Part shown: one piece after another, positions 15,149 through 28,311 of the stretch | Numbering within the stretch: the stretch's first letter is position 1 | How the letters are laid out: each line of letters starts with the position of its first letter | Assembly (NCBI GenBank): GCA_030679255.1 | Contig: JAUXTO010000025.1 | Span: 8,719 to 72,718, forward strand | DNA length: 64,000 nt | Source of the DNA: Candidatus Gottesmanbacteria bacterium | GTDB taxonomy: Bacteria > Patescibacteriota > Microgenomatia > UBA10105 > UBA927 | Direction: 5' to 3' | The notes under the pieces: model-generated | The model's database searches: none | Seen by the model: only the letters and a program-made list of their open reading frames with translations | What the model was told of the DNA's origin: nothing | Made by a program: the position numbers and the translations under genes

Positions 15149-15862
15149 ATGAATAATGATATCACGATTCTCGAACTCCGTCCCGGACCGGGTGGTGATG
15201 AAGCCAAGATATGGGCCGGCGATCTCATGCGCATGTACACGCGCTACGGGACTATCATGGGCTGGAAAGTAGAGAGCCTTGATGATTTAGTTATCCGCAT
15301 ACGGGGAACAGGCGTATTTACTAAACTCCAATATGAGGCCGGCACCCACCGCGTCCAACGAATCCCGTCTACAGAGCGCCATGGCCGGATCCATACCTCT
15401 ACGGCAACCGTTGCCGTCCTTCCCGAAATTCCGGAAAATGAAGTCACCATCCGCAACGACGACCTCGAGTGGGATTTTTTCCGCTCAGGGGGCAAAGGAG
15501 GACAAAACGTCAATAAGGTGAGTTCGGCCGTCCGACTTCGGCATAAACCCTCAGGCATCGTCGTGGCCTGCCAAACCGAGCGGGACCAATTTCAAAACCG
15601 CAGCGTAGCCCTCTCGATGCTGCGGGCCAAACTCTGGGAACGGGAACTCCTTGCCCGAGAGCAGACGATGACGGAGCAACGAAGTGTGATTGGTCGCGGC
15701 ATGCGCGCGGAAAAAATCCGCACCTATAATTATCCTCAAAACCGCGTCACCGACCACCGCATAAACAAATCCTGGCACAATCTGGAAGATGTTATGAGTG
15801 GAAAAATGCAAAAGATTTCCGAAGTGCTCTCTACTCTCCTTGATTCCCCAACGTCACCGTAA
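15149..15862 (+). CDS. prfA: Class-I peptide chain release factor (RF1-like, PST and GGQ motifs) lacking N-terminal domain 1
   Basis: It aligns to E. coli RF1 from about residue 105 onward. RIPSTERHGRIHTSTATVAVLPE carries the PxT-type motif and SGGKGGQNVNKV the GGQ. No N-terminal domain-1 coding sequence lies upstream. The 5' end abuts the hairpin element at 15003-15148. Confidence 0.75.
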   Translation: MNNDITILELRPGPGGDEAKIWAGDLMRMYTRYGTIMGWKVESLDDLVIRIRGTGVFTKLQYEAGTHRVQRIPSTERHGRIHTSTATVAVLPEIPENEVTIRNDDLEWDFFRSGGKGGQNVNKVSSAVRLRHKPSGIVVACQTERDQFQNRSVALSMLRAKLWERELLAREQTMTEQRSVIGRGMRAEKIRTYNYPQNRVTDHRINKSWHNLEDVMSGKMQKISEVLSTLLDSPTSP

Positions 15863-17033
15863 TATCTTTTTCCTTCTCATCACGCCAGACAGTAAGCTTG
15901 ACGGAATCACCGACTTTTTTCTTACTAATCGATTTTGCCAAATCATTTTTATCATCAAGTTTTGTGCCATCAATTTTGGTTATGACATCTTCTGCTTTGA
16001 GTCCCGCTTTATCAGCCGGCCCTCCCTTTACCACTTCCTGCACATACGCTCCCTCGGGAATTTCGTTAAGGATCGCCGTTTGCCGAGGAATCATACGGTA
16101 CTGCACGCCAAGAAATGGGCGGTTAAACTGACCCGTCGCGTTAAAATTGGCAAGCGCTTCTTTGACCACGTTGATGGGTAGGGCAAATCCGATATTTTGT
16201 CCCTGCGCTGACACCGCCGTATTGACCCCCACCACCTGGCCCGCAGAATTAAGGAGTGGTCCGCCGGAATTACCGGGATTGATCGCCGCGTCCGTCTGGA
16301 TGACGTTATCGAGGCGTTCTGCCGATCCCTCAAAGGGACTGCCTGCGTCTATCCCCCGCCCCACGCCGGAAATGACACCGGTCGTCACGGTATGACGAAA
16401 CTCGCCCAAGGCAGTGCCAATTGCAATCGCCATTTGACCAACTTTTATTTTATCCGAATCCCCCAATTCCACAGTCGGCAGCTCTCGCCCTGATCCGTCA
16501 GCTGACGGAGAAGGGTCAATTTTTAGAATTGCCAAGTCATTACTCGGATCGCGGTAAATCTTCTTAATTTCATAGGTTTTGTCATCTTTCGTGATTACGC
16601 GGTACGTCGCGTCGGTCATCTCGACCACGTGTTTATTGGTGACGATAAGGCCATCGCTCCCCACAATGAAACCTGATCCAATATCCTGCTCAAATTTTTG
16701 GGTTTTACCGGGCCGCCGCTGAAACGGACTAAAGGGATCAAAAGGATTAAACTCGAGGATATCACCGATCCGCCTGTTTTGCGTGATGCCGATTGTGACA
16801 ACGGCAGGAGAGACTTTATCCACGACATCAATGACCACCGATTCCTCCGTCACGACTTTGACTTTTTCATCTTCTGGCAGTGTGATCGTTTTGGAAGTTG
16901 AAAATTGTGGCAGTTTGATGGAAAGATACTTTTCTAAAAACTTCCAGTTGAGGCCAAACTGGCCGGAGCTCACCACGGCACCGCTGATCAACGCCAACGC
17001 TGCTACACTGATAAAAAATTTCTGTAACTTCAT
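15831..17033 (-). CDS. htrA: HtrA/DegP family serine protease (trypsin-like domain plus PDZ)
   Basis: GSGFIVGSDGLIVTNKHVV and TDAAINPGNSGGPLLN, followed by a PDZ domain. An in-frame 16-bp palindrome insertion at 16486-16517 encodes DPSPSADGSG. Confidence 0.9.
   Translation of the reverse strand: MKLQKFFISVAALALISGAVVSSGQFGLNWKFLEKYLSIKLPQFSTSKTITLPEDEKVKVVTEESVVIDVVDKVSPAVVTIGITQNRRIGDILEFNPFDPFSPFQRRPGKTQKFEQDIGSGFIVGSDGLIVTNKHVVEMTDATYRVITKDDKTYEIKKIYRDPSNDLAILKIDPSPSADGSGRELPTVELGDSDKIKVGQMAIAIGTALGEFRHTVTTGVISGVGRGIDAGSPFEGSAERLDNVIQTDAAINPGNSGGPLLNSAGQVVGVNTAVSAQGQNIGFALPINVVKEALANFNATGQFNRPFLGVQYRMIPRQTAILNEIPEGAYVQEVVKGGPADKAGLKAEDVITKIDGTKLDDKNDLAKSISKKKVGDSVKLTVWRDEKEKDITVTLGNQGE
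16486..16517. repeat. Family 4 palindromic insertion (tccgtcagctgacgga), copy in htrA
   Basis: cgccctgatccgtcagctgacggagaagggtc encodes DPSPSADGSG. Confidence 0.75.
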
Positions 17034-17046
17034 ACGTTCCTCCTGA

Positions 17047-18330
17047 TTATTTTAATAACACTTCCACCGCTTTTGCAAGCTGCGCATCCGTAGTCGCCGT
17101 ATACGCATCATCAAGTTTTACCTCTATATCCGGCTTGACCCCCACTTTGGCGATCGTTTCCCCTTTGGGAAGAAGCCACTTGCCCGTCGTGATATGAAGT
17201 CCCGCCCCGCCACGCAGTTCCTGTGGTGTCTGGACGGATCCTTTGCCGAATGTGGTTTCCCCGACGATCGTCGCGCGTTTATAGTCCCGGAGTGCCCCTG
17301 CGACGATTTCAGCGGCCGACGCGCTGCCGCGGTTAACGAGGACGACGAGCGGAATATCCAAGAGCTTTCCTTTCTTGTCTACCGGATAATCCTGTTTCGT
17401 TCCGTCACTATTTTTTTGTGAGACGACTACTCCGCTTTTGATAAATTCGCTCGCGATAAATACTGAGCCGTCCAGGTACCCACCCGGATTATTCCGGAGA
17501 TCAAAGATGAGCCCGGCGAGCGGACCATTTGTGCGTTGTTTGTCCAATATCTCCGCCACCGTTTTATCCCAATCTTCATTACTATGGTCCCCAAACCGGG
17601 AAAGACGGATATACGCAACCATTTTGGATGCATCAAGTTTGGCGGCATCAGCAGTACCGGATATTTCTGTGATCTCACGTACCTTTTTCACCCAACTCTC
17701 GACCGATGGCACGAGAATGGTTTGGCGCGTGATCGTCATATCAACGGGTTTCTGGCTGTTGTCATGGAGAATATTCAGTTTGACCGATGTCCCGCCTACC
17801 CCGCGGATTTTCGTCACCGCCTGCGGTACCGTCCAGCCCACCGTGTCCACATCATCGACTTTCAAAATATAATCGCCGGGTTTGATACCAGCCCGCTCTG
17901 CGGGTGTACCTTTGAGTGGGGCGATCACAATAATCCGGCTATCTTTCATCCCCAATTGGGCCCCGATTCCTTCAAACTCACCAGCGAGATCCTCCTTCAC
18001 ATCTTTATTTTCTTTCGGGGGAAGGAATACCGTGTATGGGTCACCTGCGGAGGCGACCATGCCGGAGATTGCTCCCCATACCATCTTTTGGGTATCCAAT
18101 CCAGCGGCATCGATGTAGTAACGGAACATCCGCTGCCATACGTCCCAAAAAAGGGAAAAGTCGACCGGGGTCGTGTCTTTGGCAGATTCCTGGTTGATGA
18201 CGATCCGTTTATCCCCGGTGACAGAAACACCTGCTTTCCGCTGCCCTAAATTGTATCCGATGCCACCCGCGAGGATGAGAAACGCGAAGAGTATGACGTA
18301 TTTACGGATGGAGGAAAATGGCAGGGTCAT
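17047..18330 (-). CDS. ctpA: Carboxy-terminal processing protease (S41)
   Basis: S41 motifs (NPGGYLDGSV, TFGKGSVQ) and a PDZ domain. Start placed at MTLPFSS, because the ORF's first M lies inside a hairpin element. Confidence 0.8.
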   Translation of the reverse strand: MTLPFSSIRKYVILFAFLILAGGIGYNLGQRKAGVSVTGDKRIVINQESAKDTTPVDFSLFWDVWQRMFRYYIDAAGLDTQKMVWGAISGMVASAGDPYTVFLPPKENKDVKEDLAGEFEGIGAQLGMKDSRIIVIAPLKGTPAERAGIKPGDYILKVDDVDTVGWTVPQAVTKIRGVGGTSVKLNILHDNSQKPVDMTITRQTILVPSVESWVKKVREITEISGTADAAKLDASKMVAYIRLSRFGDHSNEDWDKTVAEILDKQRTNGPLAGLIFDLRNNPGGYLDGSVFIASEFIKSGVVVSQKNSDGTKQDYPVDKKGKLLDIPLVVLVNRGSASAAEIVAGALRDYKRATIVGETTFGKGSVQTPQELRGGAGLHITTGKWLLPKGETIAKVGVKPDIEVKLDDAYTATTDAQLAKAVEVLLK

Positions 18331-18331
18331 A

Positions 18332-18433
18332 AAAAATAAACGAATAATGGAATAATCTACTATACGAATAATAGAATAAAATTGCAATTCCTCATTATTC
18401 GCTTATTTCTTATTCGTTTATTCGCTTATTCAG
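18332..18433. repeat. AT-rich hairpin element (aaacgaataatggaataat ... attattcgtttattcgcttattc)
   Basis: Inverted repeat arms in the ctpA-rpsR intergenic region. Confidence 0.55.
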
Positions 18434-18434
18434 T

Positions 18435-18680
18435 TCAGGCTCTCACGACATAAGGCAAGAGCGCCATAAACCGTGCACGTTTCACTTCGCGGGTCACTGC
18501 CCGCTGATGGGTACTGCAAATACCCGTTCGCGCTCGGCCCAAAAGTTTACCGCGCTCGCTTGCAAACCGGCCAATCGCCGCAACATCTTTATAATCCGGC
18601 ACGGTTTTATTTTTACAAAAACCACAGTTGGTCGGTACCGGGCGTTCTTTTATCTGAAATCGGTTACTTCGTTTCATCAT
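18435..18680 (-). CDS. rpsR: Ribosomal protein S18
   Basis: CGFCKNKTVPDYKDV...RFMALLPY is the S18 signature. Confidence 0.85.
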   Translation of the reverse strand: MMKRSNRFQIKERPVPTNCGFCKNKTVPDYKDVAAIGRFASERGKLLGRARTGICSTHQRAVTREVKRARFMALLPYVVRA

Positions 18681-18791
18681 ATAGTTGCGATACCAATCTA
18701 CGAATGCATACTAATGCAACGAATAAAATCTCACGCTCTTCTTTATTCGTATCATTGGCATCAATTCGTTGATTCGCATCGGATCTGTTCG

Positions 18792-19340
18792 TTAAAACGG
18801 TATATCATCCGGATTGACTTCTTCTTTCCCCTCCGGTGGTTTCACGGTTTTCGTATCATCCGGTGCCTGCTTGACGCTAGGCTGAGCAACACTTTGTGTG
18901 GTTCCAGATGGCGGTGGTGTCGATATTCCGGCCGCACTCCCCGCATGACTACTGCCGCTTTCTGATCCTGTATCTGCGCTACTCACTTCTTCTCCCGCCG
19001 GACGGCGAGAGTCCAAGAGTATCATATCCTCGATAACCACCTCTGTCGTCGTCCGCTGACTGCCGTCTTGCCCGGTCCAGGCGGCCGTCCGCAGTCTGCC
19101 TTCCACATAAATCTTCCGGCCTTTGGTGAGAAGCTGGCTACAAAGCTCAGCAAGCTTGTTCCAGGCGACCACGCGGTGAAACTCAACTTCTTCCTTTTTT
19201 TCTCCTGCCTCCGTCGTCCAATACCGGTTGGTAGCCAGACCAATGGTGCAGACTGCCGCGCCGCTTGGCGTATACCGGAGTTCCGGATCACGCGTCAAAT
19301 TTCCGATAAGTTCAACCTTGTTTAAGCTTCGTGATGCCAT
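18792..19340 (-). CDS. ssb: Single-stranded DNA-binding protein
   Basis: OB-fold N-terminus (VELIGNLTRDPELRYTPSG) and an acidic C-terminal tail ending DDIPF. Confidence 0.9.
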   Translation of the reverse strand: MASRSLNKVELIGNLTRDPELRYTPSGAAVCTIGLATNRYWTTEAGEKKEEVEFHRVVAWNKLAELCSQLLTKGRKIYVEGRLRTAAWTGQDGSQRTTTEVVIEDMILLDSRRPAGEEVSSADTGSESGSSHAGSAAGISTPPPSGTTQSVAQPSVKQAPDDTKTVKPPEGKEEVNPDDIPF

Positions 19341-19341
19341 G

Positions 19342-19617
19342 TTATTTCACCGTCAACATAAATCGCAAATAATCCGTACCCATACGTGCCTCTTTTTCCA
19401 AATCCGCAGTTTTGAGTGTGCCTTCAATCGTGGCCAATACATAGATCCCCTCATTCATCTTTTTGATGGGAAAGGCAAGCGTTCGCTTTCCCCATACGGA
19501 AACGGCCGACACAACCCCACCGGCTTTCACCAAGAGTTTATTGATTAACTCCACTGCTTTCTTTTCCGTGACGTCCAAGTCCGGCCGGATAATGAGCATA
19601 AGTTCGTAGGTTTTCAT
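19342..19617 (-). CDS. rpsF: Ribosomal protein S6
   Basis: MKTYELMLIIRPDL... in the conserved rpsF-ssb-rpsR arrangement. Confidence 0.85.
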   Translation of the reverse strand: MKTYELMLIIRPDLDVTEKKAVELINKLLVKAGGVVSAVSVWGKRTLAFPIKKMNEGIYVLATIEGTLKTADLEKEARMGTDYLRFMLTVK

Positions 19618-19651
19618 GATCCGCCCATGATATCACGGCTAAATATAAATC

Positions 19652-20815
19652 TCAATTGCCAACTTTAAACTCCACCACATCCCCATCTTGCATCACATAT
19701 TCTTTTCCTTCACTGCGCACTTTTCCTGCCTCTCTCGCCCCTTTCCAACCTTTAAGCGCCACAAGGTCCGTATACGCGACGACATCGGCCTTGATAAACT
19801 TCTTTTCAAAATCCGTATGGATGACGCCGGCCGCCTGAGGAGCCTTCATCCCACGGGTAATCGTCCACGCGCGTGCCTCGATAGGTCCACAAGTTAAAAA
19901 AGAGATGAGACCAAGCATTTCGTATGCTTTGGCGATCAACCGGTCTAAGCCGGACGCTTCCAAACCCAATTCTTTGAGATACGCCTTTTGCTCATCTTCA
20001 GAGAGACTGGCCAACTCCGTCTCTACCTTGGCACTGATGCCTAGTATGTCATTCCGGCCATCCATGTCATTCCGGGCTTGACCCGGAATCCAGTCTTTTT
20101 TTTCGCTGGATCCCGGCCCGCTTCGACGTAGCGAGGCGAGCGCGGAGGCCGGGACGACAGAATCCGTTGTCAATTGTTGTTCGCTGACATTCGCCACGTA
20201 AAGAACGGGCTTCATAGTCAAAAGCTGCAAATCCCGAACGGCTTTCTGTTCTTCCGGTGGGAATTCGAGTGATGATGCTGGTTTACCGTTATTTAAGATC
20301 TGAAAAAGCCGTTCTAATAGTTCTGGTGGCAGTGCGCTACCATCCTTTTGCCGTTTCCCATTATCTTTTTGCCGTACTATCGTTTGCAAATCAGCCAATA
20401 TGAGTTCGGTCTCAATAATCCCGCGGTCCCGCTCAGGGTTGACGTCCCCGGCTACGTGGACGACGGAAGGATCATCAAAATAACGGATGACGTTGACGAC
20501 CAAGTCAACCTCACGGATATGAGAGAGAAATTTGTTCCCCAACCCTTCACCTTCTGAAGCACCTTTGACGAGTCCGGCAATATCCACAAATTGTACGGTC
20601 GCGTGGGTGAGCGGTGGCTTCACATGCTCTTCTCTCTCCACGAGCGTTGCTAGTGTTTCTAACCTTTTGTCCGGCACGGGAACCACACCGATATTTGGTT
20701 CTATCGTGGTAAACGGGTAATTTGCCGCCTCCGCGACCTGCTTTTTGAGGAGCGCATTAAACAGCGTACTTTTTCCAGCATTAGGAAGACCAACGATCCC
20801 TACTTTTAAATTCAT
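19652..20815 (-). CDS. ychF: Ribosome-binding ATPase YchF carrying an in-frame multi-hairpin element insertion
   Basis: [22 protein letters not shown]... with a TGS-like C-terminus. The insertion at 20048-20157 encodes ...SSEKKDWIPGQARNDMDG.... Confidence 0.85.
   Translation of the reverse strand: MNLKVGIVGLPNAGKSTLFNALLKKQVAEAANYPFTTIEPNIGVVPVPDKRLETLATLVEREEHVKPPLTHATVQFVDIAGLVKGASEGEGLGNKFLSHIREVDLVVNVIRYFDDPSVVHVAGDVNPERDRGIIETELILADLQTIVRQKDNGKRQKDGSALPPELLERLFQILNNGKPASSLEFPPEEQKAVRDLQLLTMKPVLYVANVSEQQLTTDSVVPASALASLRRSGPGSSEKKDWIPGQARNDMDGRNDILGISAKVETELASLSEDEQKAYLKELGLEASGLDRLIAKAYEMLGLISFLTCGPIEARAWTITRGMKAPQAAGVIHTDFEKKFIKADVVAYTDLVALKGWKGAREAGKVRSEGKEYVMQDGDVVEFKVGN
20048..20157. 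repeat. Family 2 multi-hairpin element (TIR gtcatYcc...gggaYgac), in frame in ychF
   Basis: gtcattccgggcttgacccggaatccag...ggatcccggcc...ggccgggacgac. It carries a partial internal duplication. Confidence 0.75.
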
Positions 20816-20896
20816 GTCAAAATTGTATCAGGAAACAGACTAATGGCATAGACTGATGTTGACATTGATCGAATTCTCAGTGTTTAATAGTAGCTA

Positions 20897-21568
20897 ATGC
20901 CTATAAATACGTTAGCTGACTATATTCGTAACGCAAAAAATCAAGGCTTGTCAGATGAAACGATTCTTAAAAACCTTAAATCTGCAGGGTGGAATGATGC
21001 ACAAATTTCCGAAATTTATATACCCTTAACTGCTCATCTTTCACCTCCATCCCCACCGACAGCTTCTACGCAAACGGCGTACAAAACTTCAAGCAACTGG
21101 GATGCATTTGAACACATCCTTCTATTTATCAGCCTGTATGTACTTTATACGTCTCTGGCACTCACTTTACACTTTTTTGTAGATAAATACGTAGTAACCA
21201 ACATAAACAGTACAAACTATGCTTCCATGATACAAAATTTCTATGGTCTATCACTTCTTCGGGGATATTTAGCTGCTCTAATTGTCTCATCTCCTTTATT
21301 TTCATTTTTTTTCCTAAAAGTTACGAAACGGACTCTTGCCCATCCTGAAATACGTAACCTTCCAGCAAGAAAATTCCTGATCTATCTAACTCTCGTCATT
21401 ACTTTTATTGTGTTACTGATAAATGTTATCTCGATTATATTTAATTTCCTTAATGGAAATGTGACGTTTAATTTCGTTTTACACTTTTTTACCACGATAC
21501 TTTTAAGTGCCACTATATTTACCTACTACCTCAATGAAATTAAAGAAGACAGAAAAACTTATGTTTAA
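20897..21568 (+). CDS. Hypothetical membrane protein
   Basis: A soluble N-terminal part followed by 4-5 predicted TM helices. No family recognised. Confidence 0.45.
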   Translation: MPINTLADYIRNAKNQGLSDETILKNLKSAGWNDAQISEIYIPLTAHLSPPSPPTASTQTAYKTSSNWDAFEHILLFISLYVLYTSLALTLHFFVDKYVVTNINSTNYASMIQNFYGLSLLRGYLAALIVSSPLFSFFFLKVTKRTLAHPEIRNLPARKFLIYLTLVITFIVLLINVISIIFNFLNGNVTFNFVLHFFTTILLSATIFTYYLNEIKEDRKTYV

Positions 21569-22595
21569 ACACTATATTGCTATTACGGTCCTCAACATTG
21601 TCGTCTTCTGTAGTATTGTTGCTGGATTTATTATCGGTGGGTCACCCACTGAACTCAAAGACATAGGATACGATACGACCCGAATAAATGCATTTACCCA
21701 AATTTTCTATGCTATAGAAAATTACTATAGAAGCAACAAGGCTATTCCAGAAACCCTAACTTTGTTGAATATCCAAGCTTCGATGCTCAAAGATCCCCAA
21801 ACTAGCAAACTTTATGTCTACACAAAACAAAATAATAGCAAGTACGACTTATGTACCATCTTCTCTACAGATTCTGAAAAAATGAAACAAAAATATACGA
21901 GCACTGCTATGCCTCTATTTGATTATCAGGCTGGAGCCACAGACAATACGCATAAAAAAGGGTATGACTGTATTTCCTATGACATGTCGAAAATAACGTC
22001 AAATATCCCTACACAACAACTACAACAGGATTCGAGGCAACTTGAAAATCAAGCGCTATTTGCTCTCAAAGACGCAACATTTGACGCGACCCCTAGAGAT
22101 GCAATAAATAGGGAAAATGGGTATACCACTTCCGGAAATATAAAACTATTGATCACGACCAAACTATCGAATATCTATGAAATCAAAGATAATTCCAAAG
22201 AGTACCTTGTGGCACTACAAACTACTATCATGTCTGACGGAAATTATGAAGAATTCAAAACAAGATGTTGGAATAAATCCAATAGTAATATATTCGGTTG
22301 TCACTATAATATACAGGACATAGACTTTGTATCCTCTACAGGAAAAAGCCTTCGAAAAAATCGTGAAGGTTCTGCTGACTATACCGTATCAAAAAATTAT
22401 GGAAACCTGTCGACCTATGGAGATTTCTCGAATAACAACAAAGATCTTTTTGGGGGAAGTCTTCTATTTTACGCACCGAAACAAGATTTTACAGATGATG
22501 GAAAACCTGTAAAATTCTATATTAAAAATTTTAACAAGGGCTGGGATACCATTTCTCAACCAAATGATATAGAGATATCCATTCTCATTAAATAA
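21561..22595 (+). CDS. Hypothetical N-terminally membrane-anchored protein
   Basis: Start chosen at MFKHYIAITVLNIVVFCSIVAGFIIGG (a TM anchor), followed by a large extracytoplasmic N/S/T-rich domain. Confidence 0.45.
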   Translation: MFKHYIAITVLNIVVFCSIVAGFIIGGSPTELKDIGYDTTRINAFTQIFYAIENYYRSNKAIPETLTLLNIQASMLKDPQTSKLYVYTKQNNSKYDLCTIFSTDSEKMKQKYTSTAMPLFDYQAGATDNTHKKGYDCISYDMSKITSNIPTQQLQQDSRQLENQALFALKDATFDATPRDAINRENGYTTSGNIKLLITTKLSNIYEIKDNSKEYLVALQTTIMSDGNYEEFKTRCWNKSNSNIFGCHYNIQDIDFVSSTGKSLRKNREGSADYTVSKNYGNLSTYGDFSNNNKDLFGGSLLFYAPKQDFTDDGKPVKFYIKNFNKGWDTISQPNDIEISILIK

Positions 22596-22680
22596 ACAAA
22601 TTCCCCAATAGAAGAATGAAAAATAGAAAACGGAAAAATCTAAAAGACGGAGATTTTCTATTATAATGCTACTACAAGGA

Positions 22681-22830
22681 TTCATCCGTCATTGGTACCC
22701 ACTCCTATATTTGGCACAATGGTCGTGAACAGGTAATTAGCCGCCTCGGCGACCTGCTTCTTGAGCAGCGCATTAAACAGTGTACTCTTTCCTGCGTTTG
22801 GTAGCCCGACGATCCCTATGCGTAAGTTCA
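22681..22830 (-). pseudogene. Duplicated 5' fragment of ychF (about 41 conserved codons followed by a stop)
   Basis: The minus-strand translation [43 protein letters not shown]... matches the intact ychF N-terminus at 20815. The DNA is diverged (roughly 75% identity by eye). Confidence 0.7.
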
Positions 22831-22907
22831 TATCGCGTGTATGTCGCGTGTATTGACTATCTTTTAAATTTTTGCTACTATGTTGTTATCACGATGACTG
22901 GACTAGC

Positions 22908-23441
22908 CTAAGGTTTCGACCGACCGCGAATGCCAGTCTTTTTTTGCTCTAAAGAACCTCGTAACAAATCTATACGCACGATATATTGCTTTTGGTTAAA
23001 TCTGCGAAGCAAACTTGAAAAATGATTTGAGGGTACAAGCACCTTTAATAATTTTCCTTTACTGTCCAAATGTTCTATTAAACAATGAAAATCCCCATCA
23101 CCGCTTATAATTATCGCTTGGTGATAATTTTTGTATTGAATCATCGTATGAAGCACCAGTTCCGCATCCACGTTTCCCTTGATAATCACTTTATCCATAA
23201 CGTGACGATACAATATAGGTTTGAAAATTAGAATATATCCACATTCTTGCAAATACGCGTATAAAGCCTCATTTCCATCTAGATGACCAATAAATAAATA
23301 CGCCTTGGTGATGGCGTATTTGTTACGTAAATATTGACGAAATTTACGCCAATCCAGTTTCCAGCCCTGGGAACGAATCCCTAAATTCAAATTTTGACTA
23401 TCAATGAACGCGTAGTTCGCTACCATTTTCACATTTTTCAT
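22908..23441 (-). CDS. NYN/LabA-like domain protein (PIN-like nuclease fold)
   Basis: AFIDSQNL...GNVDAELVLH...IISGDGDFHCLIEHL matches the NYN (DUF88) pattern. Confidence 0.65.
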   Translation of the reverse strand: MKNVKMVANYAFIDSQNLNLGIRSQGWKLDWRKFRQYLRNKYAITKAYLFIGHLDGNEALYAYLQECGYILIFKPILYRHVMDKVIIKGNVDAELVLHTMIQYKNYHQAIIISGDGDFHCLIEHLDSKGKLLKVLVPSNHFSSLLRRFNQKQYIVRIDLLRGSLEQKKTGIRGRSKP

Positions 23442-23467
23442 TTGATGTCATTATCCCACAAAAAACC

Positions 23468-24322
23468 TCACCGGGCCAGCCTATTGACGCTTGCCCAGTC
23501 TTTATGTCCGCTTCCATGAGACAGTGCGTCCGAGTAGATCTTCAGCACGTCATCAAGGAACGGGACATCCAACTCTGCTGCATATTGCTTGACGTAGGTC
23601 AGATCTTTGACAATCCACTCGATAGAAAACGAAATCGGATCAGCATCGTTGAAATATCGGTCCCGCGCGATTTTAGTTATCACTCCACCCGGACGCTCAA
23701 CGAGCGCTTCTGAAACTTTTTCCAGATCCATATGATGCGCTTTTGCCATCTTCATCGCAGCTCCGAACCCGACGATGTGCAAGGCTTGCATGAAATTCAA
23801 TATCAGCTTGTACCGCATGCCGCGACCAGCCTGCCCGAAGTAAAAAACTTTTTTTGCTATCGCATCAAAAACCGGCTGCAATCCTTTTATGACGGTTGGA
23901 TCACCTCCACAAAGCAAGGTTAACGTCCCGGTTTCCGCACCTATACGACCGCCGGTGAGTGGGATGTCACAGAATTGAAACCCTTGTTGTGCACACAGGG
24001 CAATGAGCTCATCGATCCATTGGACGGATAGTGTCGCGCTGGCAATGAGAATTTTCTTGGCCTCGGCTCCGGCGAGTATGCCGTCCGGGGACTTCCATAC
24101 GGCGCGTGAAGATTCGTCATTGGCCGTCACTTCAAAAATGACATCGGCGCTTGAGGCGACCTCTTTCGGGCTTGCCATCAGTGTGGCTCCCTGTGCGACC
24201 AACTCATCTGCGACTGAAGGAGTTCTATTCCACACGTAAACAGGAAATCCGTGTTTAAGGAAATTGATTGCCATCCCCCGACCCATGATCCCCAACCCAA
24301 CAACGCCAATCTTGAGACTCAT
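23468..24322 (-). CDS. NAD(P)-dependent oxidoreductase of the 3-hydroxyisobutyrate dehydrogenase family
   Basis: An N-terminal Rossmann motif (IGVVGLGIMGRGMA) and a HIBADH-family C-terminal domain. Confidence 0.8.
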   Translation of the reverse strand: MSLKIGVVGLGIMGRGMAINFLKHGFPVYVWNRTPSVADELVAQGATLMASPKEVASSADVIFEVTANDESSRAVWKSPDGILAGAEAKKILIASATLSVQWIDELIALCAQQGFQFCDIPLTGGRIGAETGTLTLLCGGDPTVIKGLQPVFDAIAKKVFYFGQAGRGMRYKLILNFMQALHIVGFGAAMKMAKAHHMDLEKVSEALVERPGGVITKIARDRYFNDADPISFSIEWIVKDLTYVKQYAAELDVPFLDDVLKIYSDALSHGSGHKDWASVNRLAR

Positions 24323-24458
24323 GGGGAAATTGTATCACGGGAAACTATAGTTAGAACATCCTTCATTGTAGTGTTCACCACACCCCGGGGCATGTGATAG
24401 TATTCCATGTCTGTCTAAGAATCTTGACTTATCAATCCTATAGTAGGATAATCCCACA

Positions 24459-25016
24459 ATGAATTATGAAGGACCTATTATTCGAAAATTGGCGTTGGAA
24501 TTGCATAATAACGTTGATTGGAGTACACACCCCTGTCATTTAGGCAACGGAGATTGTTGTGAGGAAAATGTACCAACAGGCGCTTACGATAGACATGTAA
24601 TTTATAATGCAATAAGAACAGGTAACATATCCCAGGTAGTTGTCGCTCAAGCTAAAGAAAGAGCTGCTCAAAATGAGGAATCATGCGGATTTTTTAATCT
24701 AGATACAAGATCTTGTGATGTCTATAATTTTAGACCAGCAAATTGCATTATTGCTGGCACAGGAGGATTTGTTAACGAAAAGTCTCATAATGCAATTGAG
24801 TCGGTATTTAAATACCGCCATACAGGCGAAGACGATGGAGTTGCAATAATGCATATGGGAACATCAATGTGTAGAGGCTGTCACAACAAACTAGCCAAAC
24901 AAGGAAAACGCATACGTGTTGCAATTATTGAAGCGTATTGCACTGTAATTGATGACTATCGTAATAATTCTGCAGAAATTATGAAAATAAATGATTTTAT
25001 TACTGAAATTAAATGA
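24459..25016 (+). CDS. Cys-rich protein, YkgJ/UPF0153-like putative Zn/Fe-chelating domain
   Basis: CHLGNGDCCEE...CGFFNLDTRSCDVYNFRPANC...CRGCHNK. Confidence 0.4.
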   Translation: MNYEGPIIRKLALELHNNVDWSTHPCHLGNGDCCEENVPTGAYDRHVIYNAIRTGNISQVVVAQAKERAAQNEESCGFFNLDTRSCDVYNFRPANCIIAGTGGFVNEKSHNAIESVFKYRHTGEDDGVAIMHMGTSMCRGCHNKLAKQGKRIRVAIIEAYCTVIDDYRNNSAEIMKINDFITEIK

Positions 25017-25167
25017 ATACCACCCATGCAGACGCCTACTTCACCAATGATGTCCCCCCACACCCCGAGGTATGTAATCCTCTGTAAACATACACTCGCA
25101 ATCTATCAATTTATCGGCAGAACGACAAAATAAAAGCAAAAAAAAGAGCTGTGATATAATCACAATC

Positions 25168-25488
25168 ATGATCAAAATTCCCAAATCAAATGCCATCGTG
25201 CATGGTCGTAAAGGACTCAAGGCGAGTTATTATCAACTGCCCGACGTGTTAAACGGTATGACTCTAGCCACCGCAACATTTACCAGTGAACATGGACAAA
25301 GTACGATCGGCGACCGGCCAAGAATCTATTATGTTGTAAAAGGAAAAGGGAAATTTATCATTAACGGCGAGACGGTTCTCGCGGCATCCGGCGATGTAAT
25401 CATCATCCCGCCGAAAGCTACCTACAATCTCTGGCCGATAGGGAAAAAAATCGAAATTTTCCTCATCTCCGAACTATTATCATTATGA
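25168..25488 (+). CDS. Cupin domain protein
   Basis: 106 aa with a small cupin beta-barrel pattern (GDVIIIPPKATYNLW). Confidence 0.55.
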   Translation: MIKIPKSNAIVHGRKGLKASYYQLPDVLNGMTLATATFTSEHGQSTIGDRPRIYYVVKGKGKFIINGETVLAASGDVIIIPPKATYNLWPIGKKIEIFLISELLSL

Positions 25489-26004
25489 ACGTCATCCTTC
25501 GGATGGTCACCTCCCTCAACGGCATCATTGCCAGAATCCATAATGAGGAAGATTTCATTTCCCATGATAGTTGGCTCGTATGGCTTGAAAGCGCCCGGGC
25601 AAACGGCTGTGTCATTTACGGGAGAAAAAACCTATGAAATTATCAAAACGTGGGGGCAGGAGTATTTAGACGATCTCAAGGGTATAAAGGTCATCATTGT
25701 TTCTACGAATAATAAATTCGAGGTCGGAGAGGGTTTTACGCTCGCGCAGTCACCTCAAGACGCGTTGGCGCAAGCGCGACACTTTGGCGTCAAATGCGTG
25801 ACGTTAACCGGCGGCTCTCACATAAACAGTTCTTTCGCGAAGCTCGGCCTCATTGATGAAGTCATTCTCAATGTAGAGCCCGTCATCATCGGCGAAGGAA
25901 TCCCGCTCTTTGCGCCAACTTTTTTTGATCTGAAATTAGAATTATTATCGATGACTCAGTCAAAAGGAAAAACAATCCAACTCCACTACAAAGTGGTGAA
26001 ATAA
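25485..26004 (+). pseudogene. RibD-C-terminal/DHFR-like reductase interrupted by a +1 frameshift in an A6 run
   Basis: Frame A from 25485 gives MNVILRMVTSLNGIIARI...VIYGRKNL followed by a stop. Frame B from about 25600 continues ...GEKTYEIIKTWGQ... to 26004. The two frames join at gggagaAAAAAAcc (25624-25629). Removing one A gives the canonical GRKTYE. Confidence 0.6.
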
Positions 26005-26010
26005 GAAGAT

Positions 26011-26271
26011 TTAATAAATATTTCCCCGGTAATCTATTTTCCGTACCCAAATCTCTTTTTGTTTTTCTAACACTTCAAATAGGGCGCGGACACTCCCGGA
26101 TCGTAAGCGATAAAACCCAGGTGTGCCGACGATCTTTTTAATATCAAGATTCTTGGAAAAGGGAACCGTCAATTGTTGTAATCTACGAAGGATGTTTTTT
26201 GTATCGTAAGAAGCCAAACGGGCGAGATTCTTCTCCGCCTGCTTCGTGAACAATACATTGTATGCATTCAT
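26011..26271 (-). CDS. RelE/ParE family toxin
   Basis: 86 aa with C-terminal ...GFYRLRSGSVRALFEV...IWVRKIDYRGNIY. It follows the antitoxin gene with no gap. Confidence 0.7.
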   Translation of the reverse strand: MNAYNVLFTKQAEKNLARLASYDTKNILRRLQQLTVPFSKNLDIKKIVGTPGFYRLRSGSVRALFEVLEKQKEIWVRKIDYRGNIY

Positions 26272-26538
26272 TTATTGATACTTTTTTACAATATTTCGTA
26301 ATGGAATCCCAACACCGCGGTCCTCTTCTGCCAATTCAGCAGCATCCTGTTCGTCCGTACGGTCTTCTGCCAGTTCACGAAGCCTCGCAAATTCACGCAA
26401 TGACAACATGACAGCCCGTGGGTCGGAATGTTGAAAAAGATACACAAATCCGAGTGAGTCCACGTCAGATAAAACCTTAAGAGGATCTTCCCGAAGATCG
26501 GTAATATTTTTGGTGTTTTGACGGGTTGGTAATAACAT
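26272..26538 (-). CDS. Phd/YefM-type antitoxin
   Basis: 88 aa with ITDLREDPLKVLSDV...RAVMLSLREFARLRE and an acidic tail. Confidence 0.65.
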   Translation of the reverse strand: MLLPTRQNTKNITDLREDPLKVLSDVDSLGFVYLFQHSDPRAVMLSLREFARLRELAEDRTDEQDAAELAEEDRGVGIPLRNIVKKYQ

Positions 26539-26569
26539 AAGGTTATTATGTATAAAAACCTAAGGTTTG

Positions 26570-27229
26570 TCAAGAGGCATCCAGTAGCGAAATAACATCC
26601 TTCATTTTTTCCGCAGTGATATCCGCTCCCCTCTGCTCATACCCCACCGGCAAATGCTGCCGGTAGCCGATGGTAAATAATTCAGCGGCTTTGGCAGAGA
26701 CAATTCCAGGATTGGAATCTTCAAGCGCGACGCTTTGTTTGGAATCGGCATGAAGAATTTTCAATAAATGGAGATATCCATCCGGTGCGGGTTTAGGTCG
26801 CAGTTCCTTATGAGCATTGAGGGATAACACCATAGTGAGGTTCTTCCGCCATGACAAACGACACAACACCTGCTCAATCCAATGCATCGGAGAGGAAGAA
26901 AGCAGGACGATTTGCCAGTCATGCGTTACGAGGTAGTCAACAAGCATGTCAACTCCTTCACTAATGCTACAGCGGTTATAGACGCGCATCGCCGCTTCAT
27001 CAGACTTCTTGTTATATTGATCGTGGGTTATCTTTGATCCCAAGGACTTGGCCTTTTGATAAATGTCTTCAATAGATACCCCGACCATGTCCCCGATCGC
27101 CAACGCAATGTCTTTCCCAAATAGCTTCACATAAAAATCCGCCTCGTCCTCAATCCATGATTTTTCGCTCGCGACAAGGACCCCGTCCATATCAAAGACA
27201 AATAATCGTTTTTTGGTCACACAATGCAT
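26570..27229 (-). CDS. HAD-IA family hydrolase (beta-phosphoglucomutase-like)
   Basis: FVFDMDGVLV is HAD motif I; the other HAD motifs are downstream. Confidence 0.7.
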   Translation of the reverse strand: MHCVTKKRLFVFDMDGVLVASEKSWIEDEADFYVKLFGKDIALAIGDMVGVSIEDIYQKAKSLGSKITHDQYNKKSDEAAMRVYNRCSISEGVDMLVDYLVTHDWQIVLLSSSPMHWIEQVLCRLSWRKNLTMVLSLNAHKELRPKPAPDGYLHLLKILHADSKQSVALEDSNPGIVSAKAAELFTIGYRQHLPVGYEQRGADITAEKMKDVISLLDAS

Positions 27230-27294
27230 TGTATCACGCGCGATGAACACACCGTATTGACATATAATTATATGTATAGTAATATGTTCATCAT

Positions 27295-27576
27295 ATGAAT
27301 ACCATTCCCGTCATCGCAACGGTAGCCGATCTCCAACGTCGATACCGGCCGCTTGTCGATGAATTGAAAGAAACCGGTGAACCCTTGGTCATAGTAAACC
27401 ACGGCGAGCCAGATATAGTCATCTTAGACCCGACTGTCTACAACGCGCAGGTTCACCGACTAAAGGAAATTGAAGAGGCCTATCTCCTCGTCACTCGCGA
27501 CAGAGCACTCGAGGAATACAAAAAAGGGAAGACGATAAAACTTGGCAAGAGTCAAAAGCTCATCGACCTACTGTGA
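27295..27576 (+). CDS. Phd/YefM-type antitoxin
   Basis: 93 aa with PLVIVNHGEPDIVILDPTVYNAQV. A toxin gene follows 4 bp downstream. Confidence 0.65.
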   Translation: MNTIPVIATVADLQRRYRPLVDELKETGEPLVIVNHGEPDIVILDPTVYNAQVHRLKEIEEAYLLVTRDRALEEYKKGKTIKLGKSQKLIDLL

Positions 27577-27579
27577 GAT

Positions 27580-27840
27580 ATGGATGTTGAACTATCGTCT
27601 AACTTTCTCAAACGCGCACGCCGATTGTCCGCGAAAGAAAAAGGAAAGCTCTCCGAATCTACTGAGTGGTTCCGGCGCGATCCTCATGATCCCCGACTCA
27701 AAACCCACGCGCTCACTGGTAAACTCAAAGGAATCTACTCCTTCTCCGTGACCTATGGGAAACGGGTAACGTATATGCGGGTAGACGAGCATACTGCCCT
27801 CTTCACCGACGTCGGATCGCATGAGGATGTATATCGATAA
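27580..27840 (+). CDS. RelE/ParE-superfamily toxin
   Basis: 86 aa with LKTHALTGKLKGIYSFSVTYGKRVTYMRVDEHTALFTDVGSHEDVY, the pattern of the RelE/YoeB-type C-terminus. Confidence 0.6.
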   Translation: MDVELSSNFLKRARRLSAKEKGKLSESTEWFRRDPHDPRLKTHALTGKLKGIYSFSVTYGKRVTYMRVDEHTALFTDVGSHEDVYR

Positions 27841-27885
27841 ACCCCAAAAAAAATTCACTTGACAGAAAATCGTCCTCGTGGAACA

Positions 27886-28311
27886 ATGGAGACAATGAAA
27901 AAGAAACCGGTAAATAATAGTTTTTTCATTTTTTTTGGCAGTGTCGCGTTCATCGTGACAGCGGTCGTCGCAACGGCAATCCTCAACCGCACGAGCACTA
28001 CTACAACCTCCCAGGATGTCCGTGCCCGGGCAAGTGTCACATCGCTCATGCGTCTGACGGCAATTGTCGAGTCTATCGATGAATCAAAAAGTTTGGTCAT
28101 CGTCAATGGATTACAGTTTATGGGAAGTACACCCGAGGGGCTGCAGAGCGTCGCAAGAAATACGGGAGGCCTTTGGACCGTAACGATTTCGGCAGGTGTC
28201 AATCTTGGTACACTTCGCCCCGGGTCCCGCGTAGAACTTCAAGTTAACCCGTCGTCGTTTAATATAGCACAGAAAAGTTTAACAGCTGCCGCCATTACTG
28301 TTTCGCGCTGA
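27886..28311 (+). CDS. Hypothetical membrane-anchored protein
   Basis: METMKKKPVNNSFFIFFGSVAFIVTAVVATAIL (TM) followed by a T-rich linker. The antisense ORF is less plausible. Confidence 0.45.
   Translation: METMKKKPVNNSFFIFFGSVAFIVTAVVATAILNRTSTTTTSQDVRARASVTSLMRLTAIVESIDESKSLVIVNGLQFMGSTPEGLQSVARNTGGLWTVTISAGVNLGTLRPGSRVELQVNPSSFNIAQKSLTAAAITVSR

What the first reader, a model, noticed from the sequence alone, without database searches (positions are those of the whole stretch)
20816..22830. Two-gene insertion flanked by intact ychF and a diverged duplicate of the ychF 5' end
A 150-bp minus-strand fragment at 22681-22830 encodes [43 protein letters not shown] followed by a stop. This repeats the first ~41 codons of ychF, which starts at 20815. 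The roughly 1.9 kb between them carries two hypothetical membrane or secreted protein genes. A gene-end duplication bracketing foreign DNA is the footprint of site-specific integration, or an integrated-element remnant, targeting the ychF 5' region. The roughly 75% DNA identity suggests the fragment came in with the element rather than by recent duplication.
Basis: seen in the sequence. Interest (0 to 1): 0.6.

Follow-up and report, generated by a model that had tools for sequence, protein, structure and literature searches.

The report
Scar of DNA insertion at ychF start
A dead 150-base copy of the start of the ychF gene, with two low-GC foreign genes between it and the live gene, is a scar of foreign DNA insertion at the ychF start, a site where relatives of this Gottesmanbacteria genome repeatedly gain DNA, some through a serine recombinase.

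Summary
Window 22685-22834 (-) repeats the first ~50 codons of ychF (19652-20815, -) at 79% DNA identity. The two copies differ almost only at synonymous sites (dN/dS 0.04, dS ~1.4), so they come from two different functional ychF alleles, not from a local duplication. The fragment is now decaying: it has a +1 frameshift and changes at invariant residues (P34L, E39V).

The 1.87 kb between the copies is 35% GC against ~50% in the flanks. It carries a DUF5671 membrane protein gene and a membrane-anchored partner gene. This pair is found elsewhere only in low-GC CPR contigs and never beside ychF.

Relatives lack the segment. However, ten other ychF loci from CPR relatives carry ychF 5' stubs upstream of ychF, and 15 loci have a large serine recombinase (LSR) gene whose 3' end overlaps the ychF start. 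The ychF start is therefore a real integration hot spot.

The window has no recombinase and no LSR-type junction, and its stub ends at nt ~156 rather than nt 17. The most likely cause is one-ended homologous recombination anchored in ychF. Which copy is the immigrant is unresolved. I rate this a new member of a known kind, of moderate interest.

The parts
19652..20815 (-). Intact ychF (387 aa), the live copy. It carries an in-frame ~30-aa repeat-derived insertion in its variable loop.
   Evidence: ORF and Pfam MMR_HSR1 plus YchF-GTPase_C. It is identical to an NCBI Gottesmanbacteria MAG protein.
20816..20896 (.). 81-nt divergent intergenic region (35% GC). It holds the native-type ychF promoter, an extended -10 box TGATACAAT about 8 nt before the ATG, and presumably the DUF5671 promoter.
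   Evidence: A promoter-like site lies on the - strand at 20849..20822. The motif GTTTCC-TGATACAAT matches L085 (GTTTCCCGTGATACAAT) and the stubs of L011 and L088.
20897..21568 (+). Cargo gene 1: DUF5671 family multi-pass membrane protein (223 aa), 34.5% GC.
   Evidence: Pfam PF18920 at E 2.8e-12, 47.1 bits against a cut-off of 28.4. Homologues of 47-51% identity occur in L081 and L082, always followed by the ORF3 homologue.
21534..22595 (+). Cargo gene 2: N-terminally anchored protein (353 aa as annotated by NCBI; an alternative start at 21561 overlaps the DUF5671 stop). It has a conserved ~145-aa N-terminal domain (long helix plus beta-sheet) and a variable C-terminus. GC is 35.7%.
   Evidence: One search finds only 5 homologues, at 38-40% identity over the N-terminal 43%. 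The structure model is confident only for residues 1-145. No significant fold match was found.
22596..22674 (.). AT-rich spacer (29% GC) between the end of ORF3 and the end of the ychF fragment. The non-homologous junction lies at about 22672-22682.
   Evidence: Sequence and three-frame translation. No further ychF remnant was found by tblastn.
22675..22834 (-). ychF 5' pseudogene stub covering codons 1 to ~52. It has a +1 frameshift at codon 45 and P34L and E39V in the invariant NYPFTTIEPN motif.
22835..22907 (-). NYN-to-ychF intergenic region of the 'NYN type', conserved upstream of intact ychF in L088, L174 and L201. It contains a tandem 10-11 nt duplication.
   Evidence: Alignments.
22908..23441 (-). 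NYN (LabA/DUF88-like) gene. It is the upstream neighbour that fixes the stub's original context. The cassette from ~22860 to 23479 is ~96% identical to L088.
   Evidence: Pfam PF01936. The protein is 98.9% identical to L088's. The gene is low in GC in relatives too.

Best explanation
The fragment is the decaying stump of a second, once-functional ychF allele. Together with the live gene it brackets a low-GC two-gene cargo: a DUF5671 membrane protein and an anchored partner protein. The arrangement is a scar of foreign DNA insertion at the 5' border of ychF, a recurrent gene-flux hot spot in Microgenomates (CPR). This particular scar was probably not made by a site-specific recombinase. I propose that DNA from a related genome recombined through the conserved ychF 5' coding region or its flank at one end and was joined illegitimately at the other end. 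This is homology-facilitated illegitimate recombination, giving 'gene-start displacement'. The event cut one ychF allele at about codon 52 and left a complete gene beside it.

Shown by the data: two xenologous alleles; pseudogene lesions in the stub; foreign composition of the cargo; absence of the segment from relatives; recurrence of stubs at this gene only; and LSR elements at the same site in relatives.

Inferred: the recombination mechanism, and the direction of the event. I put about 60% on the stub being the resident allele and the cargo plus the new 5' end being incoming, and about 40% on the reverse. Nothing in the window suggests the segment is still mobile.
For: (1) The two copies differ at 23 of 44 codons, 19 of them synonymous only. 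dN is 0.057, dS is 1.40 and the ratio is 0.04. Both therefore evolved as working genes in separate lineages, and truncation is recent relative to their divergence.
(2) The stub has a frameshift and changes at residues that are invariant in all relatives.
(3) The insert is 34.9% GC against 49.7% in the flank. The DUF5671-ORF3 pair sits in L081 and L082 at the GC of those genomes (0.29-0.35), so it was acquired from a low-GC donor.
(4) The nearest relatives share the order cysS - o27859 - [variable] - ychF - rpsF - ssb - rpsR - ctpA - htrA, and none has this insert. L085 has HAD-phd-relE directly next to ychF.
(5) Same-strand ychF 5' stubs lie upstream of ychF in L008, L011, L015, L019, L020, L030, L086/L087, L088/L200, L089, L106 and L201. 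The codon pattern gives 63 hits against 1.9 expected in 2.04 Mb. Control genes give 1 weak hit in 146 tests, against 9 in 160 for ychF.
(6) Stub end points vary: about 17-20, 41, 63, 84 and ~156 nt. The same NYN cassette is bracketed by an 18-nt stub in L088 and an 84-nt stub in L201, so the joining is not at a fixed core.
(7) The L086 stub is 90% identical to the 5' end of its sister L084. The intact L086 gene is 80% identical over nt 13-63 and matches L084 exactly from about nt 61 to 120. This shows displacement of a resident 5' end by an incoming one.
(8) ychF alleles are visibly mosaic, with a type switch at about codon 50, where the window's stub ends.
Against: No donor or parental sequence is available, so microhomology at the illegitimate junction could not be examined. 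Relatives prove that a dedicated recombinase does act at this gene, so a decayed site-specific element remains possible. The direction is ambiguous: the intact gene's promoter and first 132 nt resemble the nearest relative L085 more than the stub does (84.1% against 74.2%; neighbouring genes are 76-81%). That fits the stub being the immigrant. The closest sampled relatives share only 70-75% YchF identity, so there is no true presence/absence comparison within a species. Read-level support for the junctions could not be checked.
Confidence: 0.55

Rival explanations
1. This is the remnant of a site-specific integrative element. An element with its own integrase carried a ~150-nt mimic of the ychF 5' end, integrated at a core near codon 50 and restored the gene. 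It later lost its integrase, leaving only two cargo genes.
For: The ychF start is a proven recombinase target in relatives. LSR genes overlap the ychF ATG in 15 loci. The L008 and L019 elements (8.7 and 6.9 kb) are delimited by stubs. The reconstructed L008 attP has an 11-bp perfect inverted repeat centred on ychF nt 16.5. L011, L020, L088 and L089 look like decayed versions without the LSR. LSR pipolins in ychF and a pneumococcal prophage next to ychF are published (PMC11551731, PMC6375853).
Against: There is no recombinase in the insert or within ~10 kb, and no LSR homologue in the 64-kb window. No LSR-type element-end motif is present. The stub ends at nt ~156, not ~17. The 3' edge of the repeat has no identical core: the longest identical run is 14 nt and lies inside the repeat. 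At 1.87 kb, with genes that elsewhere are ordinary chromosomal neighbours, the insert has no element hallmarks.
Confidence: 0.25
2. The direction is reversed. The DUF5671-ORF3 pair and the intact ychF were resident, and an incoming island (...HIBADH-NYN-ychF') that ended inside the donor's ychF was joined illegitimately just past ORF3. On this reading the fragment is the immigrant.
For: The intact gene keeps the native-type promoter and a 5' end closest to the nearest relative L085 (84.1% against 74.2% for the stub; third positions 61% against 43%). L085 has relE directly upstream of ychF, so everything from 20816 to 26010 is extra in the window. The NYN cassette next to the stub is ~96% identical to L088 although core genes are ~70-75% identical, so it was exchanged recently.
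Against: Wherever polarity can be read in relatives (L086 against L084; L088 with its stub next to the conserved neighbour o27859; L008 and L019), the stub is the resident allele and the DNA between stub and gene is the newcomer. The DNA between the copies is the compositionally foreign part here as well. The 132-nt comparison is statistically weak, and the stub carries extra pseudogene changes.
Confidence: 0.4
3. The arrangement is a metagenome assembly chimera that joined two co-occurring strains inside ychF.
For: The source is a MAG contig. The closest relative's contig (L083) breaks at ychF codon 5, so this locus does trouble assemblers.
Against: The stub carries a frameshift and two changes at invariant residues upstream of the junction, so it is a pseudogene and not a slice of a working gene. 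The two copies share no identical run longer than 14 nt, too short to mislead an assembler. Equivalent stubs occur in many independent assemblies, and L088/L200 is the same arrangement from two samples at 99.96% identity.
Confidence: 0.05
4. The fragment arose by local duplication of the ychF start, or is a conserved functional small ORF or leader peptide.
For: It keeps an ATG and an open 49-codon frame on the same strand as ychF.
Against: Synonymous divergence is saturated while dN/dS is 0.04, which a non-functional local copy could not produce. The upstream DNA is not duplicated. No relative has this ORF, and stub lengths and tails differ in every genome. No Rfam family matches the region.
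Confidence: 0.02

Closest known systems
Homology-facilitated illegitimate recombination and gene-end displacement arrays (Rhs C-terminal displacement; Vibrio T6SS effector-immunity arrays; PMC5361080, PMC3240628)
   Same: Incoming DNA is anchored by a conserved gene segment and joined without homology at the other end. The displaced piece of the resident gene is left behind as an orphan. Successive events stack up. Junction positions vary between events.
   Different: Here the displaced piece is the 5' end of a housekeeping GTPase gene, not the 3' toxin end of a polymorphic toxin gene. The cargo is unrelated to the anchor gene. The mechanism is inferred from scars only.
LSR integrative elements that target ychF (LSR-encoding pipolins of Actinomycetota, PMC11551731; the LSR elements found here in L008, L019 and 13 other loci)
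   Same: The target gene is the same. The window shares with the L008/L019 elements a displaced same-strand 5' stub and low-GC cargo absent from relatives.
   Different: The window has no LSR, no element-end motif and a junction ~140 nt away from the LSR crossover. The CPR LSR elements rebuild the ychF start from within the 3' end of the LSR gene, and the window's ychF instead has the native promoter and start.
SXT/R391 integration into the 5' end of prfC, with a replacement promoter and 5' coding sequence (from my own knowledge, Hochhut and Waldor 1999; not checked here)
   Same: An insertion into the 5' end of a conserved translation-associated GTPase-family gene is tolerated because a substitute 5' end keeps the gene intact, and a displaced native 5' piece is left at the far side.
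   Different: SXT uses a tyrosine integrase with a short identical core and is a ~100-kb conjugative element. Here no integrase or core is present and the insert is 1.9 kb.
Pneumococcal prophage between dnaN and ychF (PMC6375853, PMC8637289)
   Same: A mobile element sits immediately upstream of ychF with its integrase gene next to ychF, and it affects ychF expression.
   Different: Its attB is intergenic. No ychF 5' duplication is reported in the abstract or the passages I read. The host phylum and integrase differ.

Membership tests
LSR integrative element at the ychF start (as in L008/L019) | A large serine recombinase gene (Resolvase + Recombinase + Zn_ribbon_recom) abuts and overlaps the ychF ATG | tested here: not met
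   tblastn of the L019 LSR against the whole window gives only chance hits (E >= 0.59). Pfam on all neighbouring ORFs finds no recombinase.
LSR integrative element at the ychF start (as in L008/L019) | The junction lies at ychF nt ~16-18 and is followed by the conserved element end (CGTTACAACGCTCCAACTTTTG in L008 and L011) | tested here: not met
   The stub runs to nt ~156. The motif is absent from the window even with 3 mismatches allowed.
LSR integrative element at the ychF start (as in L008/L019) | A displaced ychF 5' stub lies on the same strand upstream, with low-GC cargo between stub and gene that relatives lack | tested here: met
Integrase-mediated element that restores its target gene (SXT-prfC type, tRNA-island type) | An integrase or recombinase gene lies inside or next to the bracketed segment | tested here: not met
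   The part of the 75-kb source contig outside the 64-kb window could not be read.
Integrase-mediated element that restores its target gene (SXT-prfC type, tRNA-island type) | An identical core sequence lies at the boundary where the two repeat copies stop being alike | tested here: not met
   The last 24 nt of homology are only ~58% identical (my count of the sequence). The longest exact run (14 nt, CTGTTTAATGCGCT) lies in the middle of the repeat. Pseudogene decay could have erased a core.
Homology-facilitated illegitimate recombination / gene-end displacement scar | The two copies of the anchor segment come from different lineages, not from a local duplication | tested here: met
   dS 1.40 and dN/dS 0.04. 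The upstream regions are unrelated.
Homology-facilitated illegitimate recombination / gene-end displacement scar | The non-homologous junction falls at different positions in independent events | tested here: met
   Stub lengths are 17-20, 41, 63, 84 and ~156 nt. The same NYN cassette has stubs of 18 nt (L088) and 84 nt (L201).
Homology-facilitated illegitimate recombination / gene-end displacement scar | Short microhomology between donor and recipient at the illegitimate joint | not testable with these tools
   No donor or pre-insertion sequence exists in any collection searched. The best ORF3 homologue is 40% identical and the best YchF is 75%.
In-situ tandem duplication followed by decay | The copies diverge neutrally (dN/dS near 0.5-1) and include the flanking non-coding DNA | tested here: not met
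Pfam DUF5671 (cargo gene 1) | Score above the Pfam gathering threshold | tested here: met
   47.1 bits against a cut-off of 28.4, E 2.8e-12.
Type IV pilin-like protein (cargo gene 2) | A prepilin peptidase site (G/FTLxE) and the pilin fold | tested here: inconclusive
   I see no canonical cleavage motif by eye in the N-terminus (MFKHYIAITVLNIVVFCSIVAGFIIGGSP). The model shows a long N-terminal helix plus a beta-sheet at pLDDT 70-90. The best pilin hit, 4noa, has E 3.5 and is not significant.

The most novel reading that the evidence does not exclude
In Gottesmanbacteria and related Microgenomates, the first ~20-160 nt of ychF act as a shared landing pad for two routes of gene flux. The first route is a family of large serine recombinase islands whose attP lies partly inside the recombinase gene's 3' end and rewrites the ychF start codon region. 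The second is recombinase-free cassettes (NYN; DUF5671 plus its partner) that travel attached to a ychF 5' segment and are inserted by one-ended homologous recombination after DNA uptake. Each event would leave a displaced gene-start stub, so the stubs form a readable record of serial insertions. The window's 150-nt stub would be one entry in such a record.
Probability: 0.35. Interest if true: 0.6.

Novelty: new member of a known kind. Interest (0 to 1): 0.42.

Why it matters
The result identifies the ychF start as a specific, recurrent site of gene gain in an uncultured, small-genome lineage (CPR Microgenomates), where mobile elements and routes of gene transfer are poorly known. It gives annotators a rule: short ORFs beginning MNLK(V/I)GIVG upstream of ychF are displaced gene starts, not genes. 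In relatives it also yields concrete, testable attB/attP predictions for a new clade of large serine recombinases, which is of practical interest as integration tools. For the window itself the feature is an inert scar. Its value is as a marker that 20816-22674 is acquired DNA and that recombination between diverged ychF alleles occurs in this lineage.

Tried and rejected
1. Exact-protein look-ups of the window's ychF and ORF3 returned no contig, so the source contig beyond the window could not be read.
2. The GTDB genome scan and the JGI metagenome scan with ychF found no relative above 66% identity. The large protein database gave at most 75%. A true within-species presence/absence test was therefore impossible.
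3. GC3 along ychF shows no step that would reveal a crossover point.
4. Sliding identity to relatives shows mosaicism but no clean donor/recipient boundary.
5. The structure of ORF3 is confident only for residues 1-145, and Foldseek against the PDB gave nothing significant. NCBIfam gave nothing for either cargo protein or for NYN.
6. Two IMG/VR scans with the LSR, once as a single protein and once as a 10-sequence alignment, found only distant recombinases (<=32% identity). The ychF-targeting LSR islands are therefore not evidently phages.
7. Rfam found no RNA family in 18000-28500.
8. The promoter/terminator scan was at background level. The hairpin after ORF3 is weak and I make no claim about it.
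9. I first thought the low-GC NYN gene was part of the same insertion. I rejected this because NYN is lower in GC than its flanks in every relative.
10. Hits of the ychF N-terminal pattern at the start of HIBADH genes (L010, L013) are false positives caused by the similar Rossmann N-terminus.
Full report
OBSERVATION. The intact ychF gene lies at 19652-20815 on the minus strand. It encodes 387 aa with Pfam MMR_HSR1 and YchF-GTPase_C domains. A local DNA alignment gives 118/150 identical positions (78.7%) between 20670-20818 and 22685-22834. The repeat finder reports 141 nt at 79% and self-blastn gives E = 2e-28. Similarity starts 3 nt before the ATG, and the DNA upstream of the two copies is unrelated. 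After one extra G at codon 45 the fragment still reads VPMTDESL against VPVPDKRL in ychF. The homology therefore fades out at about codon 52, near 22675. No other piece of ychF lies between or beyond the copies.

WHAT THE TWO COPIES ARE. Over the first 44 codons, 23 codons differ. Nineteen of these differ only synonymously. dN is 0.057, dS is 1.40 and dN/dS is 0.04. A dead local copy would have gathered amino-acid changes as fast as silent ones. Both sequences must therefore have spent nearly all of their divergence as working ychF genes in different lineages, and the truncation is recent by comparison. The fragment is now decaying. P34L and E39V hit the NYPFTTIEPN motif, which is invariant in every relative inspected. 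It also has a frameshift, and its last eight codons are degraded. Local duplication and a 'conserved small ORF' are both excluded.

WHAT LIES BETWEEN THEM.
- Composition: 20816-22681 is 34.9% GC against 49.7% for 15000-20815 and 51% for the HIBADH gene beyond.
- Gene 1: a DUF5671 membrane protein at 20897-21568 (PF18920, E 2.8e-12).
- Gene 2: a translationally coupled second gene at 21534/21561-22595.
- Gene 2 homologues: only five in 5.8 billion proteins, at 38-40% identity over the N-terminal 43%.
- The pair elsewhere: in two of those contigs (L081, L082) the same DUF5671-plus-partner pair sits among ordinary housekeeping genes, far from any ychF. There it has the GC of its host genome, 0.29-0.35.

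The pair is thus a normal CPR two-gene module that reached this genome from a low-GC donor. The partner's N-terminal 145 residues model as a long helix packed on a beta-sheet (pLDDT 70-90). This is a pilin-like topology, but no fold match is significant, so I leave it as an anchored extracytoplasmic protein of unknown function.

CONTEXT AND RELATIVES. The window belongs to a Candidatus Gottesmanbacteria MAG. The closest sampled relatives share only 70-75% YchF identity. They share the gene order cysS - o27859 - [variable genes] - ychF - rpsF - ssb - rpsR - ctpA - htrA.
- None has DUF5671-ORF3 near ychF.
- L085 is the nearest relative on both flanks (rpsF 87%, rpsR 90%, phd 86%). It has HAD-phd-relE directly before ychF. 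Everything from 20816 to 26010 in the window is therefore extra relative to L085.
- No integrase, transposase or LSR lies in that stretch or within about 10 kb on either side.

A RECURRENT HOT SPOT. Searching each related locus with its own ychF N-terminus revealed more stubs. They are on the same strand, upstream of ychF, and most carry their own promoter.

| Locus | Stub length or end point | Distance or insert |
|---|---|---|
| L086/L087 | 63 nt | ~240 bp insert |
| L015 | ends at nt 41 | stub starts 142 bp upstream of the intact ATG |
| L030 | ends at nt 41; perfect ~60-nt direct repeat | ~1.5 kb insert |
| L088/L200 | 18 nt | ~0.7 kb upstream |
| L011 | ~17 nt | ~1.1 kb upstream |
| L020 | ~20 nt | ~3.1 kb upstream |
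| L089 | ~18 nt | ~5.7 kb upstream |
| L008 | 17 nt | 8.7 kb upstream |
| L019 and L106 | ~17-30 nt | 6.9 and 1.9 kb upstream |
| L201 | 84 nt | ~0.7 kb upstream |

A codon pattern for the ychF start gives 63 hits in 2.04 Mb of loci where 1.9 are expected, and every extra hit is upstream on the ychF strand. The HIBADH starts of L010 and L013 are look-alikes and are false positives. The same search for rpsF, ssb, rpsR, ctpA, htrA and cysS gave one weak hit in 146 tests, against 9 in 160 for ychF. The phenomenon is therefore specific to ychF.

A RECOMBINASE AT THE SAME SITE IN RELATIVES. In L019 the 6.9 kb between stub and gene ends with a 542-aa protein with Resolvase, Recombinase and Zn_ribbon_recom domains. 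Homologues of this LSR lie immediately upstream of ychF in 15 of 165 loci, with the last 30-55 nt of the recombinase gene overlapping the ychF ATG. These include the Gottesmanbacteria L008, L009 and L012. Three copies are cut off by a contig end or are remnants (L091, L106, L016), one is frameshifted (L112), and in two the alignment stops short of the ATG (L012, L097). In some loci the element supplies a lengthened N-terminus, MSSSGLRVGIVG or MSRVLSIGIVG (my reading of the sequences). The 8.7-kb L008 element carries the LSR, a Ser/Thr kinase and a Schlafen/AlbA_2 protein and is lower in GC than its flanks. Joining the left half of L008 attR to the right half of attL reconstructs an attP with an 11-bp perfect inverted repeat (CAAAAGTTGGA / TCCAACTTTTG). 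The repeat is centred on ychF nt 16.5, exactly where the stub's homology stops. L011, L020, L088 and L089 keep related element-end sequence but no LSR. Site-specific integration into the ychF start is thus real in this clade. ychF is already published as an LSR-pipolin site in Actinomycetota (PMC11551731), and a pneumococcal prophage sits next to ychF (PMC6375853, PMC8637289). I found no paper linking LSRs and CPR.

WHY THIS SCAR IS PROBABLY NOT AN LSR SCAR. Four observations point away from the LSR.
- The window has no LSR homologue.
- It has no element-end motif.
- Its stub is ~156 nt long rather than 17.
- Its live ychF has the native promoter and start (GTTTCC-TGATACAAT-N8-ATGAATTTAAAAGT, compare L085), so it looks like an unoccupied site.

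The stub's upstream DNA is the right flank of a NYN gene cassette. That cassette (window ~22860-23479) is about 96% identical in DNA to L088, and the protein is 98.9% identical, while ychF is only ~73-78% identical between the two genomes. In L088, L174-176 and L201 the same flank precedes an intact ychF. The stub was therefore once the start of a working ychF downstream of NYN.

The NYN cassette is itself bracketed by a displaced ychF stub of 18 nt in L088 and of 84 nt in L201. In L088 the inserted DNA begins inside the last codons of a HIBADH gene. The same cargo with arbitrary left ends and different stub lengths is what one-ended homologous recombination predicts, and not what a recombinase with a fixed core predicts. 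ychF alleles are also plainly mosaic. L086 matches L084 from about nt 61 at least to nt 120, but not before nt 61. Its stub is 90% identical to the 5' end of L084. Two allele types switch at about codon 50, where the window's stub ends.

MECHANISM PROPOSED. DNA from a related genome was taken up, paired with the chromosome through the conserved ychF region or its flank at one end, and was joined without homology at the other end. This is homology-facilitated illegitimate recombination, described experimentally in Acinetobacter, Pseudomonas stutzeri and S. pneumoniae. It has been invoked for Rhs and T6SS 'displacement' arrays (PMC5361080, PMC3240628). The result is one truncated and one complete ychF with foreign DNA between them.

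The steps that the data show are:
- two xenologous alleles;
- decay of one of them;
- foreign cargo;
- polymorphism among relatives;
- a hot spot specific to ychF;
- variable junctions.

The recombination pathway itself is inferred, because no donor or pre-insertion allele exists in any collection searched.

DIRECTION. By analogy with L086, L088, L008 and L019, the stub is the resident allele and the DNA between stub and gene is the newcomer, bringing a fresh 5' end. Against this, the intact gene's first 132 nt are 84.1% identical to L085 and the stub only 74.2%, where neighbouring genes are 76-81%. That fits the stub having arrived at the tail of an incoming HIBADH-NYN-ychF' island. I put this at about 60:40 and regard it as open.

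OTHER RIVALS. An assembly chimera is unlikely. The stub's lesions lie upstream of the junction, the copies share no exact run longer than 14 nt, and the same kind of scar appears in many independent assemblies. A decayed integrase-borne element with a long ychF mimic remains possible (about 0.25), because the site is a proven recombinase target.

VERDICT. For this window, however, it is an inert scar without a recombinase, best explained by recombination between diverged ychF-linked segments. The wider pattern is the more interesting result: a ychF-start hot spot in CPR served by an LSR family that rebuilds the gene start, plus recombinase-free cassettes. Novelty: new member of a known kind. 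Interest: 0.42.

Noticed in passing
L008:8398-10044, L019:8431-10059, plus L009, L012, L018, L104, L105, L112, L121, L143, L153, L091, L097, L106, L016: A clade of large serine recombinase genes sits directly upstream of ychF, and the 3' end of the recombinase gene overlaps and supplies the ychF start. The L008 and L019 islands (8.7 and 6.9 kb) carry Schlafen/AlbA_2 and kinase genes. The reconstructed L008 attP has an 11-bp perfect inverted repeat centred on ychF nt 16.5.
   Followed up: partly
window 22860-23479 (NYN gene 22908-23441, -): The NYN/LabA-like gene is ~96% identical in DNA to L088/L200 although core genes are only ~70-75% identical. The family has 7851 database hits below 1e-30, at 73-99% identity among the 120 listed, from diverse CPR lineages. 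It is lower in GC than its flanks in every genome checked. It repeatedly lies just upstream of ychF (L005, L088, L174-176, L201), but also between argH and a B3_4 gene (L168-173). It behaves like a frequently exchanged cassette.
   Followed up: partly
window 20040-20117 (inside ychF) and 62668-62718: ychF carries an in-frame insertion (…DWIPGQARNDMDGRND…) made of a palindromic repeat (GTCATTCCGGGCTTGACCCGGAATCC). The repeat recurs at 62668-62718 at 87% identity. Relatives have similar repeat-derived peptides (VIPAKAGIQ, WIPDQVGND, GFRLGGRND) in the same variable loop of YchF.
   Followed up: no
window 11094-11130, 49457-49493, 53337-53368, 55073-55109, 55331-55362, 55879-55914: There is a family of ~32-nt perfect hairpin repeats (TAGCCTTAAAAGGTCTCACCTTTTGAGGCTAA), found in both orientations. 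They are likely terminator-like or REP-like elements.
   Followed up: no
L201:1321-1404 and 1420-1460: The scars are nested. An 84-nt ychF stub is followed by a second ychF-type promoter (TGTTACAAT-N6-ATGAAG…) that is fused to the start of the NYN gene, then NYN, then the intact ychF.
   Followed up: no
L083:1 (GCA_016218205.1, JACREO010000006.1): The contig of the closest relative (75% YchF identity) ends at ychF codon 5, next to the LSR crossover position. This may reflect population heterogeneity at this site, or it may be chance.
   Followed up: no
window 19652-20815 compared with L083-L089: ychF alleles are mosaic. Two sequence types for codons ~50-75 (LERLAQLVEQDEHVKPPL against LQKLAEITKEEEKMDKLPPL) are shuffled among close relatives, and the central helical domain of the window's gene is L083-like while its ends are L085-like.
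   Followed up: partly
window 24459-25016: A CxxCxxCC (PF03692) gene has 36% GC (GC3 0.23). It forms a second low-GC islet inside the 5.2-kb variable stretch between relE and ychF. The stretch also holds cupin, RibD_C and HIBADH genes, none of which has a counterpart in the nearest relative L085; HIBADH recurs only in L010 and L013.
   Followed up: no
window 22834-22856: A tandem duplication of a ~10-11 nt unit (TCGCGTGTAT on the + strand) lies just upstream of the stub's ATG. It is absent from the homologous flank in L088.
   Followed up: no
window 55907-57031 and 57028-58188: Two adjacent minus-strand genes are diverged tandem paralogues, 70-76% identical in DNA over ~290 nt.
   Followed up: no
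L010:9104-9130: A weak 9-aa match to the rpsF N-terminus (NKLYEFVKL, E 0.3) lies between NYN and HIBADH. It could be another displaced gene start or chance.
   Followed up: no
L001, L002, L008, L010, L013, L016-L021, L023, L024, L028, L030 (GTDB record titles): Several contigs titled 'uncultured Gammaproteobacteria', 'Pseudomonadales' or 'Pseudobdellovibrionaceae' rank among the closest YchF matches to this Gottesmanbacteria window, and many share its ychF-rpsF-ssb-rpsR-ctpA gene order. The record names look wrong.
   Followed up: no
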